Origin: Callorhinchus milii
Lineage: Eukaryota
Length of the DNA stretch: 64,000 bases
Direction: 5' to 3'
Assembly: GCF_018977255.1 (NCBI RefSeq)
Contig: NW_024704749.1
Location: 7,378,001-7,442,000, forward strand
Every line of letters begins with the position of its first letter. The stretch's first letter is position 1. Shown here piece after piece: positions 36,010 through 43,841 of the stretch. Under the pieces are notes generated by a model. That model ran no database searches, had not been told where the DNA came from, and worked only from the letters and a program-made list of their open reading frames with translations. Both the position numbers and the translations under genes were made by a program.

Positions 36010-39000
36010 CTATAAATGTTGGCATTCAAAGTGACGATGAGATAAAATCGCAGCTTGAGAACGCAGTTTACTCTTTCCTTTGTCGTACTTCTCTTCACCC
36101 CGTTCTCGGCTGGTTGTCTCTGCCCGTTCTTCTACTGACGCACAGCTCATCAAGTACACGAGTTCCTCCTCTGTCGAAGTGGCCACATCTAGGAAGACAT
36201 CGCAGAGCTTGGGATTTTGAAAGTCTTGCAAAACTACATTAGGTACACGTGTGTGCAAAACTAAACTTAGGAACACAGCAACAGGACTAGGTTGTTCAGC
36301 CCCTCGAGCCTGTTCCGCCATTCTATTAGATCATGGCAGATCTATACCTCAACTCCCAATTACCCGTCTTTGCCCCATATCCCTTGATACCCTGAGCTAA
36401 CAAAAAATATATCCACCTCAGTCTTGAAAATTTGAATGGATTCAGTATCTACAGCCTTTTGGGGGAGGGAGAGAGTTCCAGATTTCCTCTACCGTTTGCG
36501 TGAAAAAATGCTTCCTGGAATCTTGTAGATTTATTATAGAAACGGACACAATGGTATCTCTCCACCCCCACCCCCCAGCAGTCAGCAGTGTTGGCAACTT
36601 ACCTCTTGTTGGTTGTGACTGTGTAACTGAACTGACACGCACTCGCTTGGTCTTGTTGCTTGGTTGAACTCCGGACTGTAACCTGCAACATTGGGGCGGG
36701 GGAAAAATATATTCTTATTGGGAACTTAACCAAAAGAGATTGGGCGCTCTTCTCTTTCCACAAACTTGCCTTAACTCCAGCTCTTTTGTCCAATTGCCTT
36801 GTTATTTCTGAGAGTGACTATTTCTCTGTTGTGGACTTTGCTGTGCACATAAAGGGCTGTCACTTTTATCCATAAATGCATATGCTACCCTTGATGGTAA
36901 TTGCTGTGAAAACGCTTTGAATTGTTCCAAAGCATTAAGATACTAATAATATATTGCTCTCAATGGCTTAATTTGTTCAACGCTCTGTGTGGATTTACAC
37001 TAGCAATAGAGAGAGAAGTGAGGGGTAAAGGAAGGGGAGAGCGGTGTAAGACACACTGACCTCTGACTGCCTTCCCCTATCCTGGGGAGGAAAATGGATC
37101 TCGCTGGCTGCTTTGCAGAAGCTGGGAAGCTGCTGCTTCTCTGTGCTCTCTTGTTTTCTCTCTGAGGCTTGAGCTTTAGGAGATGGTCCGTGTACTTCTG
37201 GCATTCACGATGGGTGATGTATCCTGATGTGGACAAGCGATGTGTTTAAAATATTCAGCTCACCATTACTTGGTTACAGTCCCATCCTATACTATTACTG
37301 GTACCATTCTGTACTATTCACAATGGGCGAGCATATATTATTTATATATGGCATCACTGGCTCCCCATCCCTCAGAGGATCGAGTTGCAAATCCTTGTCC
37401 TCACCTTTAAAGCTCACCACAATTTTGCTCAATCCTATCTCTGTGACCTCCTAAAGCCCTACCAACGTGTCTGCTCCTTTCGCTTGTCTGGCACTGGCCT
37501 GTTCCACTTCTCCCACGCTGCCCGCTCCACCATCCACCATGTGGCCTTTAGCCTTTCCGCACCCACCCTCCGGAACTTTATCTCGGAGCCCCTCCGCCTT
37601 GTCCCCCTCCCTTGACTCCTTTGATGCCCAATTCAAAACACGATAGGCGCTGTATAAATGCAAGTTGTTGTTGAATGGTGTGGGCTCACCGAGGTGAGCA
37701 CGCTGCTGTAACGTGCTCAGATACTGTTTCTGCATCAGGCGGCGGCTGCAGTCTGTACTGTAGATGTTAGCAATGCTGTACAGGTAACGTTTCTGTCCTG
37801 CTGTCAGGCCTGGATGCTGGGACACACGGGTTAAGCAGTTTTTTTTAATATTAAAAAAAGGGCAAAACCTTACTCCACAGCACTCTGTTTACCCAGCAGT
37901 AAGTAGGAACCTGGTTGTTAGTCAATTGGCGGATCGCTTTTCCGAAGGTAATAATCCTTTCAATAAAATAAATTTAAAAAATGATTTGGTCACTGAATCC
38001 ACGACTGTTTACGTGACACTTCTGTGCACAATTGGCTGCAGTGTTTTGCGCCACAAAATATACATTCAATTCACTTTACAATATATTCGGTGAAGCCCTT
38101 GAGACGTCTCGACAACGTGATAAGGCGCTATATTAAATGCAAGGATTATTATTACCAATGACCTGAAAAATAGCTCGAGCCGCTCCCCCCCCCAAAGAAA
38201 TCATACGCTGTAGGAATGCAGAGAAACAGACCCACCTGCAGAAATGGGGCTTTCTCCATTGCTCGGGGGATGTGTATGGTTTTCAGGTGCGGAGTGAGGG
38301 TGAGCTGCAGCATTATGTCCCGGTACTCTCTGGCTCTCTCCTCCTTCAGTTTGCATATTCTCTCCGTCAGGGAGCAGGCCAACGCTGGAGACACATGTTG
38401 GAAGCAGAGAAATGAGACTTGACAGAACATCCCACGCCTTACTGCACAGGAGGCTGTTCGACCCATCGTGACTGTGCCTATACCTCGCCCACTGGAGCTA
38501 AAGTCAGGCCCTATTATAACGTTGTGGTTTGACTTTATAATGGGTAGCATAAGAAAAGTGGTCACCACTGATCTCAGTTCCTGCTACAGTAATTATTGCC
38601 TTGGGGTGTCCTCCCCACGTGCAAGGTGCTATAAAGATGGAAGTTGTTGTGTAACTCAGGCTCATAGCACACGCCTATACAAGGGCACCTTACAACTGAG
38701 GCCAGCTTTACTCCCGTTCCACATTGCCCTCCCCGTTCCCTCTCACACCCTTCACCAAATTCCCCTTCAAAGGACCGTGTTGACTCTGGTATGCTACCCT
38801 GCGTGAGAGGTGATATATAAATGCAAGTTGTTGTTGGCTCGTCTCCATTCTCCACATCCGAATGACTCCATGCAATGGGTATCTAACAGAAGACCATTTG
38901 GCTTGGTGTAGAGGTCCTGGTGGGGTAGGGGGTGGATTGGGTGGGGGGGATGGAAAGACCCTGAATGACCACTCACTCACTCACCTTCATTCACTAACTG

Positions 39001-42000
39001 GTCTTTGAAAGCTTCGTTGTCATTATTTATAGAGATTTAGACATTCCATTAAATATTCCTCTCCGACGGCTGAAGACAGTTAATAGTTAGAGAAAGCAGA
39101 GCAATTCTGCATAACCTTTATAGGGTAAGAGCCTTCTTGTAAGATTTCCAAGCTTAGCGGAGAAACATATCAGTTGCCAATCACGGTAGATTTTAAAATG
39201 ACTATTTTGCTACAGAAAAGACTAGGGGTGTGGTTATGTTTGGGAATATTAATATTGATAAGCATCCTTTTTTTAAAGAAAACTATAAATCATCAATTTT
39301 AATCTAGATTGGGGATGGACAGGGAGTTGTATTAAAAAGTAAAGCTCTCTTCTGTATTCCTTTCAGATAATTTATTGCCCTGTGTGAAAGGAGTCCCAGT
39401 TTTGGGTTGCTATACCAACGGCTCTGGCATTGATGCCTATTCACAACAGCTTTCTATTTGTGTCCCAATGTCCCATGGGATCGTTCACTTTTAACCAAAG
39501 GGAAGCAGCTTCCAGTGGAATAAAACCTCTCAGTGTTAGCAGACTAGCTCCCCGAGTCCTTCGCAATAGAAGCCCTGTATTTTGTTGCACATTAACAATA
39601 TCTAAATTCTGATCTCAGGTTCTGAACCCGACTGGTTAAAGGAACATTGTGTGAGACCTTCCTCTTCCCCTGTGCAGAATCTCGGTGACCTGTCCCATTT
39701 CACTGCCTTCAGACACCAGACAGACAATCCCATTTGCCTTAGAAACCAGCAGCCGTAGCAACAGCAAACATGACAGTTTCTGAACAAGGGTCTATTGTAC
39801 ACCTCGGGCTAAACCAATGTGTTGTTACGGAAGATCGACAGGGTTCACCTTGACTGTATAGTTAATAAAACCAATGGAAAGGTTTTATTAATTGTACAAA
39901 ATTAACAGTCAGTCCTGGAGGTGAGAGATAAAGGAGGATCGGATGGATGTAATGTGGCATTTGATAAAAGTTCCACATTAAGAGGTTAACTTAAAATTGA
40001 GGTGAATGGAATTGTAGGCAATATCATGAAATGGATAGGAAACAGATTTATTTTCTGTGTGTGGCTCTTGTCCCTGTCTTCTCCCCTCAAAACCCAATCC
40101 CTGTCTTTGTATCGTCCTGAAACCATCTCCCTTCCTCCCCACCCTCATTCCCTTACGTGACGGGAATGAGGTTTGTCCCACATGAAAGGGGAGCTTCGCT
40201 GTATGAGTTGTGCGAGTTTCACTCGGGTTTGATTCCCGGGCAGGGCGGAACCTTAGGCAAGTTTCCTTATTCCACACACCTCTGTTTACCAGCAGTAAGC
40301 AGAACATGGGTGTTAGTCCATTGGCGGATCACTTTCCGGGAGTAATAATCCCTTCAAAAAATATATAATAATTTGGTCACTCGATCCATGACTGTTTGTG
40401 GGACACTGCTGCACACAATTGGCTGCTGCGTTTCGTCTACAAAATATACAGTTATTCCACTTTATAGTACATTCTGTGAAGTGCTCTGAGACATCTCAAC
40501 GACGTGATAAGGCGCAAGATCAAATGGAAAGATTATTGGATTATTGTTAAAGCCCCAGAGCTGTACTAGACACAAACACCGCGACCAGGAGCAAATGCCA
40601 AACTTTATTTTCTTACTCCCAATGCCATTAGGGCACCTTACATTCCCTATACCTTCTCTTAAACTAAGATAAAAGGTTACGCAGTGTCTTGTGCACTGCT
40701 TGGATATGGGGAAAAGAAGGGAAGGAGGGAGATGTAAAGCGGTCGAGAGGGAATGGGTGAGAACTACAAAGGAATCCTCTCTCCAAGCTTGAGGACCGGT
40801 CTGGCCACTTGATTCCTTGCGGAGCCAGAGACCAGGTTCTGACTCAGACACTTGACCAGGGCACTTATCTCTTGGCTCAGCTCCCTGAAGCCAGACTCCA
40901 CCATGCCTTGGAGTTGCAGGAAGCTGGAGTTGATGGTGGCAAGGTTATATTCCATTTTCTGCAGTGTGGATTCCACCGTGTTCATGGTGGAGCTTATCTG
41001 CCCCATGCTTGCCTGGATCCTCTTGTTGTTAGACTCGATCACGTCTTGGAGCAGGTTCATCCCGCTCTGGAAGTTGACCTGGGTTTCTTCCAACTGGCAC
41101 TGGATGTTTCTCCGCACTTCCCCCATGTGGGTCAGCCCGTCTCGCTGTACCCTCAGCAAGTGGGACAAGAGGTCAGGATCCAGCTGTTCTTCCTGGGGTT
41201 TCCCCCCCACCCCAACTCTCCGCCTGCTCTTCCCCGGCTCGATCACCGTCACGTCCTGTTTGCTTGTCTTGATCGGGAGCTCCCTGGCCGACATGACCCT
41301 GGCCCCCAGCTCAGGCTCGCTTACCACCACCTCCAGGTTGTGCCTCTCGCACTGGGGCTGGAGCTGGGACTGGGGGAGGGGGAGGCACAGCTGCCCCTCG
41401 TCCTCCTGACGCCTCTCTCCCTGTGCCCACTGGTCGGGGTGCTGGGGCTCAGCCGACCAGATGGGCAAAATAATCTTCCTCCTCGGCTTCTGCAGGGAGA
41501 CATCTGCAATCACATTAAAGCATGCGGTGAGTGTGTGTGAGGGGGAAGGGGGTGGGGAGGGAGTGGCTGGGGAGAGCGGGTGTGGCTCAGGAGAGGAGGA
41601 GGAAGAGAAGAGGGGTGGTAAGGGTAGAATTTCACAAACATTTCCCCCCCTCATATTCATTTCATCCTCCTGATGTGAAAGGTGCTAAAAAGAGGTAACT
41701 TCTTGTTGTTGTATTCAGCCAACAAGCAGTTATGGTTGTCTCCTCAGTCAAGGAAGGCAGCAGAACAAGGCAATGGACAACGCATGCAGGTGGTAACAAA
41801 ATGGCCTTTGCTCTTACCAGCATGCTCCTCCCACAGGCCAGCTTGCTTAGCCTGCCTCTGCTCTTCAGTCAGCTCTGCGAAGACCACAGACATCGGCCTT
41901 TTCCTCACCAACGTACGTCAGAGCGAGCCTAAGGACTGAGCCCCCAGTCGAGAGTGCGATGATCATTTTCCTTCCAAAGCATTTTGTCTCCTCTTCCACC

Positions 42001-43841
42001 CAAGGCTGGAGTCCGTCTGTTTTTGACCGTTATTTCCGACGCTCCCTGTGTGCTTCCCAACAAGCATGTCCTGGTGCTCCATCATCTTCATTATCATCCT
42101 CACTTGCCTCACTCTTCCCAAATCGCCTTCCCCATAGACTCGCATTCTCTTCCACCGGAGTCTGGTCTGCTCTTTGCCAGATGCTTAGCCAGATGGCTAT
42201 TTAGGATTGCCAGCTGTTTCAAGAGTGAATCCTCGGAGCCACAGACAACCCAACCCATCTCATTGTGTTGTTACTGATCTATAACTATGGTGTTCATCAC
42301 TGTACCAATCACTCACCAGTTCATACAATCCTACAACTCAGAAAGAGGCCATTCGGCCCATCGTGCTTGTACTGGCTCTTTGAAAGAGCTACCAACTAGT
42401 CTCATTCCTCTGCTCTTACCCCAAAGCCCTGCAAATTTTTCTTTTTCAAATAAATATCCAATTCTCTTTTGAAAGTTCCTGTGCTTCCTCTCCTTGATTC
42501 TGCAAGCATCGCCTTTTCCCAAGTTTCAGCAGGCACTATTCCACCAGCCAAAGGCAACATCTCAACCAATATTCCTTTAACCAACTTTATTAAACTTTCA
42601 GAAGGTTATTATATAATGGCTCTTGTACATAACACATACTATCTGCATGCAAATGTAATATGCATCATCTATCTGTCTGTCCATCTGTCAGACTCCATCT
42701 GTCACAGTTGAAGACCTTCATCTTTGACCGTGTTTATGGCCACCTCCCTCTCTCTGCCTGGCTCAGTGTCAAGCTTCGCTCTGAGATGCTACCCTGCATG
42801 AAGGGTGCCATATAAATGCAAGTTGTTGTTATCTTTGTCGGTCACACAGTGTCTCTCTATCTGCCTTTAAAAGCCTCTGGAAAACCTGCTTCCTTGACCC
42901 TACATCCAGTCATCTCCTCCCCCACCCTCTCCTCTTTCATTCTCCCTCCGATTCCTCTCTCGACACTGTCAAATGGTTTCATGAGAGATGGTGAGACTTC
43001 AGCATGTGTGTGTGCACGGGGGGAGGGTGGAAGTTGGGTGGGGACGGGGTGAGTGGGGGGTTTGCTTACCGCTGTTATTGTGACATTGTGGGAAATTAGG
43101 TCCTGGAATCCTGTAAAAACAAATGAGACAGTGACGGGTGCTCCGCTCCTGATTAATTTTTACAGCAAGTTTAAAAAAAAGTTGTGGAGTGTTTGCCTCA
43201 CAAGCGAGAGGACCCAGGTCCAATTCCCAGGTGGAGAGAAACCTCAGACAAGTTTCCTTGCTCCACACGCCTCTGTTTACCTAGCCAGCAGTATGTAGGA
43301 ACCCGGCTGTTGGTCCATTGGCGGATCACTTTCCCAGAGTAATAATCCCTTCCCCCAAAACATTTTTTTAGGGTCTGCCACTCAATCCATGACTGTTTGT
43401 GGGACATCTCTGTGCACTAGTTGGCTGCTGCGTTTCACCAACAAAACACACCTTCAATGCAATTTACGATATAAAGCGCTTTGAGACGTCTCGACGACGC
43501 GATAAGGCGCTGTATCAAATGCAAGGATTATCATTATTACTACACAAAGCACACAGTTGACAAAGATAAAAGTCGAGTCCCTTTTTTTAAAAAAAATCAA
43601 CACAGCAGAGTGTTAACACTTAACACCGAGCCTTGCATTTGCAGAAACTAACCTCGCTCGTAAAGGAAGAGAAAGAGAGAGGGAGAGAGAGAGAGAGAGA
43701 GATCAGCTATCAACGTCGGTCGGATCTGTGCAATGTGGGGTCTCTCTCTTACCTGACAACTTGATTGGCGTTCTGTGGCAATTTGGGATCGTGATTGCCA
43801 CAACCTCGGTCGAGGAAGCTGACTTGCTTCCTCACCTCCAT
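36010..43841 (-). CDS. FAM216A: FAM216A-like protein, about 275 aa. Exons: 43841-43753, 43110-43070, 38384-38236, 37816-37690, 37223-37061, 36682-36603, 36188-36010
   Basis: The core KTIHIPRAMEKAPFLQ/HPGLTAGQKRYLYSIANIYS..LMQKQY is the FAM216 signature. Seven phase-consistent exons total 828 nt. The ATG is in strong context (gcgATGg) and the gene is head-to-head with GPN3 as in human. Terminal exons are less certain than the core. Confidence 0.85.
37353..37673 (+). mobile_element. L2-clade LINE 3' fragment with (GTT)n tail. Related pieces at about 35415-35770 (-), 15030-15240 (-), 46040-46200, 52585-52655 and 62405-62472 (+)
   Basis: Translates HWLPIPQRIELQILVLTFKAHHNFAQSYLCDLLKPY, matching the L2 ORF2 C-terminal HWLP..RI.FK.L..TFKA.H...P.YL motif. 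Ends GGCGCTGTATAAATGCAAGTTGTTGTTG. Confidence 0.78.
40604..40609 (-). terminator. Poly(A) signal of the nested coiled-coil exon
   Basis: AATAAA on the minus strand about 155 nt after the stop, followed by GU-rich ggtgtttgtgtct. Confidence 0.5.
40764..41503 (-). CDS. Unannotated coiled-coil coding exon (246 codons including stop) nested in FAM216A intron 2; either an alternative last exon or a separate gene
   Basis: Uninterrupted frame after acceptor gtgattgcag|AT, GC3-rich codons, heptad-like C-terminal half, TAG at 40766-40764, and AATAAA on the minus strand at 40609-40604. Confidence 0.7.
41818..41874 (-). CDS. Candidate 57-nt phase 1-1 exon (ELTEEQRQAKQAGLWEEHA) upstream of the nested coiled-coil exon
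   Basis: gtcttcgcag|AG...GCTG|gtaagag, in frame with both FAM216A exon 2 and the 41503 acceptor. An in-frame ATG also lies at 41893. Confidence 0.5.

What the first reader, a model, noticed from the sequence alone, without database searches (positions are those of the whole stretch)
40604..41893. Hidden coiled-coil protein-coding unit nested inside FAM216A intron 2
Seen: a 740-nt minus-strand exon (41503-40764) with acceptor gtgattgcag|, 245 uninterrupted codons, GC3-rich codon use, a stop, and AATAAA (40609-40604) followed by a GU-rich tract. The C-terminal ~120 aa (LLRVQRDGLTHMGEVRRNIQCQLEET..IQASMGQISSTMNTVESTLQKMEYNLATINSSFLQLQGMVESGFRELSQEISALVKCL) is heptad-like and unrelated to FAM216. 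The acceptor is phase 1, matching the FAM216A exon 2 donor at 43070, and a symmetric 57-nt exon (41874-41818) can be inserted in frame. Inference: one promoter may give two nearly unrelated proteins (FAM216A versus a 289/308-aa coiled-coil protein sharing only ~43 N-terminal residues) via an alternative last exon. Alternatively this is a separate 271-aa gene starting at ATG 41893. I know of no such unit at the human locus. The architecture loosely recalls the C-termini of Harbinger-derived Myb/SANT or t-SNARE-like proteins, but no Myb domain is visible.
Basis: partly seen in the sequence, partly recalled or inferred. Interest (0 to 1): 0.8.

Follow-up and report, generated by a model that had tools for sequence, protein, structure and literature searches.

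The report
Shark-lineage coiled-coil exon colonising two genes
An intron of the elephant shark FAM216A gene holds a protein-coding last exon, conserved in sharks and skates, that likely swaps the normal protein for an unrelated, predicted coiled-coil rod, and a related exon sits inside a second, unrelated gene.

Summary
The exon is real. The window is from Callorhinchus milii. RefSeq already models the 289-aa form (exons 1+2 joined to 41503) and the 271-aa form (ATG 41893) as FAM216A isoforms X1 and X4; canonical FAM216A is X3. Orthologues exist in four elasmobranchs. In bamboo shark and little skate they begin with FAM216A exon 1-2 homologues, so the alternative-last-exon arrangement is ancient. 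The 108-aa core is about 50% identical across species, against 23-24% in the linker. It is predicted as one long helix that forms a parallel coiled coil. New here: the genome holds one paralogue, also a large phase-1 terminal exon with its own AATAAA, between the likely first exons and the IQ exon of an IQANK1-like gene. This matches the TMPO/ZNF451 LAP2alpha double colonisation in layout. No transposon source was found, and the Harbinger-Myb/t-SNARE idea was not supported. RNA contigs from two studies cover the exon; one starts exactly at the acceptor. The 43070-to-41503 junction, the 308-aa form and the 3' end at 40585 were not shown. The domain has no Pfam family, and my searches found no paper on it.

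The parts
43753..43841 (-). FAM216A exon 1, coding part (89 nt), shared by canonical and coiled-coil isoforms
   Evidence: Matches RefSeq X1 and X3 exactly; spliced to exons 2-3 in RNA contig X10 record 6
43070..43110 (-). FAM216A exon 2 (41 nt), phase-1 donor at 43070 that can join 41503 or 38384
   Evidence: The join to 41503 rests on RefSeq X1 and on orthologue N-termini
41818..42806 (-). Long transcribed upstream exon ending at donor 41818 and carrying ATG 41893 (271-aa form). Its 5' end is unknown; 27 upstream ATGs lie in 42806-41894
   Evidence: X2 records 12 and 13, X3 record 20, X4 records 25 and 26; RefSeq X4; ATG count
41818..41874 (-). Proposed 57-nt cassette exon: in frame, but use of the 41874 acceptor is unsupported
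   Evidence: frame; no support
40764..41503 (-). Coding part of the alternative terminal exon (245 codons plus stop, phase-1 acceptor)
   Evidence: X2 record 11 spans 41504-40487 and starts at the acceptor; no second DNA copy among 40 scored matches
40836..41159 (-). Conserved 108-aa coiled-coil core (residues 159-266 of the 289-aa protein)
   Evidence: 53-55 of 108 identical in 4 elasmobranch orthologues; one helix, pLDDT 94; parallel homo-oligomer model
40604..40609 (-). AATAAA, candidate intronic polyadenylation signal with downstream GT-rich tract
   Evidence: Sequence only; cleavage not shown
38236..38384 (-). FAM216A exon 3, the competing phase-1 acceptor; the FAM216B Pfam domain begins here (residue 70)
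37690..37816 (-). FAM216A exon 4 (PF15107 core)
   Evidence: exon 3-4 junction (CT..AC) seen in 4 of 4 runs

Best explanation
FAM216A intron 2 holds a conserved protein-coding terminal exon that likely acts as an alternative last exon, replacing the FAM216 domain with a disordered linker and a predicted self-associating coiled-coil rod. The steps are as follows. (1) The exon 2 donor (43070, phase 1) can splice to exon 3 (38384), giving 275-aa FAM216A; this is shown in RNA contigs. It can also splice to the intronic acceptor at 41503, giving a 289-aa protein; this rests on a RefSeq model and on matching N-termini in orthologues. (2) The intronic exon supplies its own stop (shown) and likely its own poly(A) site (inferred), so the two products are mutually exclusive. 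(3) A second entry through donor 41818 gives a 271-aa form, probably from an internal start (inferred). (4) The conserved C-terminal 108 aa are predicted to form a long parallel homo-oligomeric coiled coil, so the protein is most likely a structural or scaffolding oligomer, not an enzyme. (5) A homologous exon with the same layout lies in an IQANK1-like gene. The simplest history is an ancient cassette (acceptor, ORF, poly(A) signal) that inserted into two unrelated hosts before chimaeras and elasmobranchs split and borrowed the host promoters. A mobile-element source is likely by analogy but was not found.
For: RefSeq X1 and X4 match the predicted splices exactly. Orthologues exist in Leucoraja, Amblyraja, Chiloscyllium and Scyliorhinus. 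Of these 4, Chiloscyllium (named 'FAM216A isoform X1') and Leucoraja have N-termini homologous to the 43 shared residues (0 and 2 of 2000 shuffles reach the score), and the exon follows a 13-residue exon-2 equivalent directly. Core identity is 49-51% against 23-24% in the linker. RNA contigs cover the exon in 3 of 4 runs from 2 studies, and X2 record 11 starts at the acceptor. Hydrophobic period is 3.55-3.6; AlphaFold gives one helix. Three-copy model: score 0.49, best of 3 controls 0.00, runs agree in at least 94% of contacts, pLDDT at least 78. That mark was reached by 21 of 30 solved homo-pairs and 0 of 23 single chains in microbes, and by 17 of 29 and 0 of 30 in eukaryotes. Paralogue at G000:C2:121102811-121103656: phase-1 acceptor, AATAAA, two phase-1 upstream exons, IQ and ankyrin exons downstream on the same strand. 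The two clades are homologous (HHalign 99.1%, E 1.2e-18) and separated at 100/100 support.
Against: I did not see the 43070-to-41503 junction in reads: 238 joints were hidden. In X3 and X4 the FAM216A contig runs unbranched through exons 1-3 while the nested exon is covered, a weak hint that it is transcribed separately there. The 29 unplaced letters after donor 41818 fit a join to 41503, but a join to 38384 is not excluded. The 3' end was not shown. The Amblyraja and Scyliorhinus models lack the exon-1 N-terminus (p 0.07 and 0.86). The two upstream exons at the C2 locus are assigned to IQANK1 by my inference only. In Chiloscyllium the paralogous exon ends an 818-aa model, after the IQANK1 exons and an unrelated stretch, so its position is not shown to be conserved. 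No dN/dS between orthologues, and no peptide evidence. The oligomer number was my choice; three copies lie outside the calibration, and only 1 of 7 eukaryote pairs without an older solved relative reached the mark.
Confidence: 0.72

Rival explanations
1. The exon is the body of an independent nested gene with its own promoter in intron 2 (271-aa form or internal Met). Splicing from FAM216A exon 2 is minor leakage.
For: A long upstream exon ending at 41818 is covered in 3 of 4 runs, and in X2 it has depth 15.9 against 22.6 for the coding exon. Canonical contigs are unbranched at exon 2 in X3 and X4. RefSeq names the skate and catshark proteins as separate uncharacterised loci.
Against: The FAM216A exon 1-2 N-terminus is on the orthologous models in Chiloscyllium and Leucoraja. 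No orthologue shows the 26-aa N-terminus of the 271-aa form. 27 upstream ATGs precede ATG 41893 in the covered stretch. No CpG-island-like peak there.
Confidence: 0.18
2. The exon is the C-terminal exon of a domesticated Harbinger Myb/SANT gene that lost its Myb exon.
For: Two of 9 Myb_DNA-bind_5 loci in this genome showed a similar layout, with a large downstream exon made of a disordered linker and a helical region.
Against: HHalign against those two gave probability 0.4% (reversed control 0.3%), and 0.14% against the coiled-coil exon of a third Myb locus. The core HMM found nothing downstream of the 9 loci (best other E 2 among 7291 ORFs). A Myb HMM built from 6 of the loci found no remnant in FAM216A intron 2 or the C2 region.
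Confidence: 0.05
3. A young or non-functional transposon ORF, or a chance open frame.
For: The layout resembles a mobile insertion. Paralogue NG86 pS 0.57 and pN 0.41 are not decisive, because synonymous sites are near saturation.
Against: Only 2 protein-level copies were found and no second DNA copy. Intact orthologues exist in four elasmobranchs, with conservation concentrated in the core. Shuffle tests gave 1 of 1000 and 0 of 300.
Confidence: 0.02

Closest known systems
TMPO/LAP2alpha and ZNF451-L2a (PMC4495291; parts 1-2 of 3 of the text read, covering the whole body)
   Same: Two unrelated host genes each carry a homologous, large, single alternative 3' exon with a poly(A) signal that replaces the host's own domain; restricted to one lineage; the original isoform is kept.
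   Different: No sequence match to LAP2alpha (PF11560 not hit). There the source is a DIRS1 ORF1 with hundreds of living copies; here no source element was found. Lineage is cartilaginous fish, not mammals. No proteomics or dN/dS here.
CSB-PGBD3 exon trap (PMC2268245; 10 passages read)
   Same: Intronic unit with an in-frame acceptor and poly(A) signal, used both as a fusion last exon and from an internal start.
   Different: PGBD3 is a recognisable piggyBac transposase with TTAA duplication and MER85 ends; here there is no transposase, and no shared non-repeat flanking DNA between the two loci.
FAM216A (PF15107)
   Same: Same locus and the same first 43 residues.
   Different: The FAM216B Pfam domain starts at residue 70 of the canonical protein and is absent from the coiled-coil isoforms, so RefSeq's name 'FAM216A isoform X1/X4' misdescribes the protein.
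Long parallel trimeric coiled coils such as LINE-1 ORF1p (recalled)
   Same: Disordered N-terminal part followed by a long parallel coiled coil (predicted).
   Different: No Pfam match to any L1 ORF1 family at E up to 1 and no RRM follows; PDB sequence hits were only weak generic coiled coils (best E 0.007); Foldseek found nothing, which is uninformative for a single helix.

Membership tests
FAM216 protein family (PF15107) | FAM216B domain in the protein | tested here: not met
   Absent from the 289-aa protein; present in canonical X3 at residues 70-156
Domain-swapping alternative terminal exon (TMPO/ZNF451, CSB-PGBD3 type) | Single large intronic exon with an in-frame acceptor and its own stop | tested here: met
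   paralogue
Domain-swapping alternative terminal exon (TMPO/ZNF451, CSB-PGBD3 type) | Host upstream exons spliced onto it in transcripts | tested here: inconclusive
   RefSeq X1 and two orthologue models have it; junction not visible in my read laying
Domain-swapping alternative terminal exon (TMPO/ZNF451, CSB-PGBD3 type) | Intronic polyadenylation | tested here: inconclusive
   AATAAA at both loci; contigs run on to 40487 and cannot show ends
Domain-swapping alternative terminal exon (TMPO/ZNF451, CSB-PGBD3 type) | Purifying selection on the new domain | tested here: met
   Protein level only: intact in 5 species, core 49-51% versus linker 23-24% identity; dN/dS between orthologues could not be computed
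Domain-swapping alternative terminal exon (TMPO/ZNF451, CSB-PGBD3 type) | Homologous exon in a second unrelated host gene | tested here: met
   Paralogue lies upstream of the IQ and ankyrin exons of an IQANK1-like gene on the same strand; that the two exons upstream of it belong to that gene is inferred
Domesticated transposable-element exon | Sequence homology to a known or multicopy element | tested here: not met
   2 copies only; no Pfam, PDB, viral-contig or metagenome relative; Dfam and Repbase were not available, so an extinct source is not excluded
Harbinger-derived Myb/SANT proteins | Myb/SANT domain upstream, or a homologous C-terminus | tested here: not met
t-SNARE / LAP2alpha / L1 ORF1 | Pfam domain match | tested here: not met
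   No such family among the hits at E up to 1 or 0.05

The most novel reading that the evidence does not exclude
An undescribed, now extinct mobile exon-trap cassette encoding a coiled-coil domain colonised at least two unrelated genes (FAM216A and IQANK1, perhaps a third in bamboo shark) in the ancestor of cartilaginous fishes. Both copies were kept for over 400 million years as alternative last exons, a second and far older LAP2alpha-type double domestication, with the two products possibly co-assembling in germ or ciliated cells.
Probability: 0.3. Interest if true: 0.75.

Novelty: new member of a known kind. Interest (0 to 1): 0.56.

Why it matters
Genes whose isoforms swap one whole domain for another are rare: PMC4495291 retained nine in human and treated the double colonisation of TMPO and ZNF451 as remarkable. 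This looks like an independent, much older case with a domain that has no family name, and every named relative found is a cartilaginous fish. It also shows that database entries called FAM216A X1/X4 in chimaera and bamboo shark are a different protein, and it points to an unnoticed paralogue. It offers a test of how old vertebrate lineages gain new proteins by borrowing host promoters.

Tried and rejected
Pfam scans gave only sub-threshold generic coiled-coil hits. The ESM Atlas gave no hit at 0.9 or above (best 0.77 and 0.86). PDB profile search gave weak dynein, spike, syntaxin-6 and haemagglutinin helices, treated as generic. Foldseek on PDB and BFVD returned 0 matches. PHROGs: phrog_6376 hit 3 of 7 members (best E 2.9e-6). 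An unnamed 680-aa protein P0010 scored E 1e-4 by phmmer and HHalign probability 82% against 11% reversed. Both were set aside as likely compositional coiled-coil matches, not disproved. Viral and metagenome contig scans found no relative among 85 and 164 pattern matches. Own-genome searches for PF02994 and PF11560 rang nowhere, controls included, so they are uninformative. The unrelated 70-aa stretch of the Chiloscyllium model was not found in this genome or in Pfam. No listed run was on record as RNA; the four laid runs are RNA by guess, though all show the spliced exon 3-4 joint. Two variants in the exon (one synonymous, one not) are too few to use. The first exon 1-2 check and the FAM216A GC values used coordinates off by one and were discarded; one search is the corrected check. 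Exact look-ups of 5 single-exon Met-started products found none. The word-index searches missed known orthologues, so they say little about range. Earlier-findings searches returned nothing.

Full report
Setting. The best database hit to the ORF is a Callorhinchus milii RefSeq protein. The window is G000:C8:7378001-7442000. FAM216A lies on the minus strand (PF15107). Upstream on the plus strand is a GPN-type ATPase (ATP_bind_1; the name GPN3 is recalled). Downstream is a VPS29-like gene (name recalled).

Observation. Exon 1 CDS (89 nt) plus exon 2 (41 nt) end in phase 1, as do donor 41818 and acceptors 41503 and 38384. A stop-free run of 245 codons arose in 1 of 1000 exon shuffles and 0 of 300 intron shuffles. 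GC by codon position is 0.59, 0.38 and 0.80. A DNA search with 40560-42330 returned the locus itself and 39 matches to one 50-base intronic repeat, among 40 scored of 93 candidates.

Annotation. RefSeq holds four isoforms: X1 289 aa (exons 1+2 plus this exon), X2 287 aa, X3 275 aa (canonical) and X4 271 aa (ATG 41893). X1 and X4 match the genome with 0 mismatches. None is the 308-aa form. I could not see the evidence behind the RefSeq models.

Transcription. I laid 4 of 12 listed runs (assembled contigs, RNA by guess, 2 studies). All four show the exon 3-4 joint. The coding exon is covered in X2, X3 and X4, and not in X10. In X2 one 1018-letter contig runs 41504-40487 at depth 22.6, starting at the acceptor. 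Another covers 42385-41818 at depth 15.9 and has 29 further letters. That is the overlap expected if it splices to 41503, but the letters were not printed, and a join to exon 3 fits the same arithmetic. Coverage continues upstream to at least 42806, so donor 41818 closes a long exon and the 41874 acceptor is unsupported. That stretch holds 27 ATGs before 41893, so the 271-aa form needs a nearer start site to be translated well. Canonical contigs in X3 and X4 pass exons 1-3 without a break, a weak hint that the nested exon is entered by its own route in those samples. The 43070>41503 joint was not among the 15 joints shown (238 hidden). Contigs cannot show strand, ends or level.

Conservation. 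phmmer over 1.84 billion representatives gave 7 hits at E up to 0.001: this protein, three named elasmobranch orthologues (Leucoraja, Chiloscyllium, Scyliorhinus), a Heptranchias protein, an unnamed Logan protein, and one 680-aa protein that I set aside as a generic coiled coil. Amblyraja came as a cluster member. Every named relative is a cartilaginous fish; the organisms of the Logan records are unknown. The Chiloscyllium protein is named FAM216A isoform X1. It and the Leucoraja protein begin with homologues of C. milii exons 1-2 (17 and 14 of 43 identical; 0 and 2 of 2000 shuffles reach the score), followed directly by the new exon. The Amblyraja and Scyliorhinus models start elsewhere. Identity is 53-55 of 108 in the core in all four, against 26-28 of 115 in the linker for the three that span it. 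An open frame kept since the chimaera-elasmobranch split (over 400 million years, recalled), with conservation focused on one domain, indicates purifying selection. dN/dS between orthologues could not be run for lack of their DNA.

A second copy. Three protein searches of the genome found this exon and one paralogue, at C2:121102811-121103656 (candidate counts are lower bounds). It has a phase-1 acceptor, a 277-codon frame, GC3 0.83 and an AATAAA about 220 bases past the stop. Downstream on the same strand lie an IQ-motif exon with a phase-1 acceptor and exons matching the Chiloscyllium IQANK1-like protein. Upstream lie an ATG-bearing exon ending in phase 1 and a 114-nt phase 1-1 exon, then a divergent SACK1-domain gene (FAM83H by recall). 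I infer that those two exons are IQANK1's first coding exons, which would put the paralogue in intron 2, as at FAM216A. The two clades are homologous (HHalign 99.1%) and split at 100/100 in a 9-row tree. Both include chimaera and elasmobranch members, so the duplication predates that split. Against a tidy picture, the Chiloscyllium paralogue ends an 818-aa model after the IQANK1 exons and a stretch that I recall as TONSL-like. This may be a misassembled model or a third host.

Protein. The core has a hydrophobic period of 3.55-3.6. AlphaFold2 gives a single helix over residues 2-116 of 117 (pLDDT 94, pTM 0.47). A three-copy model is an in-register parallel coiled coil: score 0.49, best of 3 controls 0.00, contact agreement at least 94%, pLDDT at least 78. 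The mark was reached by 21 of 30 solved homo-pairs and 0 of 23 single chains in microbes, and by 17 of 29 and 0 of 30 in eukaryotes, but by only 1 of 7 without an older solved relative. Three copies are outside the calibration and were my choice, so self-association is supported and the trimer is not established. No catalytic, membrane or nucleic-acid-binding family was hit. A scaffold or spacer role is the most likely. A role in germ or ciliated cells is a guess from recalled expression of the two hosts.

Origin. A single large exon with an acceptor and poly(A) signal, in two unrelated hosts and one lineage, fits the indirect signs of transposon origin listed in PMC4495291. The direct sign, a multicopy source, is missing. 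Harbinger Myb genes were tested: 9 loci, no core-HMM hit in 10 kb downstream, no Myb remnant at either host, HHalign 0.4%. The two loci share only common repeats in their flanks. An extinct element, a retrocopy or a small segmental duplication all remain possible.

Literature. Searches for FAM216A (52 papers, 25 listings seen), IQANK1 (37, 20 seen), FAM216A with shark (1), two architecture queries and a Harbinger query (3) showed nothing on this exon, judged from listings and abstract starts only. The library lacks most subscription papers, and no supplements were searched. PMC4495291 was read through its conclusions, and PMC2268245 as 10 passages.

Verdict. A real, conserved coding unit. The protein models are already in RefSeq but unrecognised as a separate family. 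The layout is of a known, rare kind; the domain and the two-host arrangement appear undescribed.

Noticed in passing
G000:C2:121102811-121103656 (L002:1327-2175, minus): Paralogous coiled-coil terminal exon in the IQANK1-like locus; no database protein from it was returned by any search here.
   Followed up: yes
P0019 (XP_043547019, Chiloscyllium): The 818-aa model joins IQANK1 exons without the IQ exon, a stretch recalled as TONSL-like, and the clade-B coiled-coil exon; probably a chimeric model, or a third host gene.
   Followed up: partly
window 38236-38560, minus: RefSeq X2 (287 aa) and UniProt V9L133 (247 aa) start in sequence just upstream of exon 3, so FAM216A has a further internal start after the nested exon.
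   Followed up: no
L004:6684-7065, minus (C2:121109684-121110065): The likely first coding exon of the IQANK1-like gene encodes a tandem Lys/Ala/Ser/Gln/Pro repeat of about 15 residues.
   Followed up: no
window 43841 and about 45117; C2:121110065 and 121137388: Both host genes lie head to head with a neighbour (a GPN ATPase, and a SACK1/FAM83 gene).
   Followed up: no
L024-L026, L033, L035 (C1:95.28 Mb and 135.8 Mb): A small family of Myb_DNA-bind_5 genes with homologous large C-terminal exons, likely Harbinger-derived and domesticated.
   Followed up: partly
L032 (C326:58101-68100): LTR-retrotransposon-like gag/pol frames lie downstream of a Myb-domain exon.
   Followed up: no
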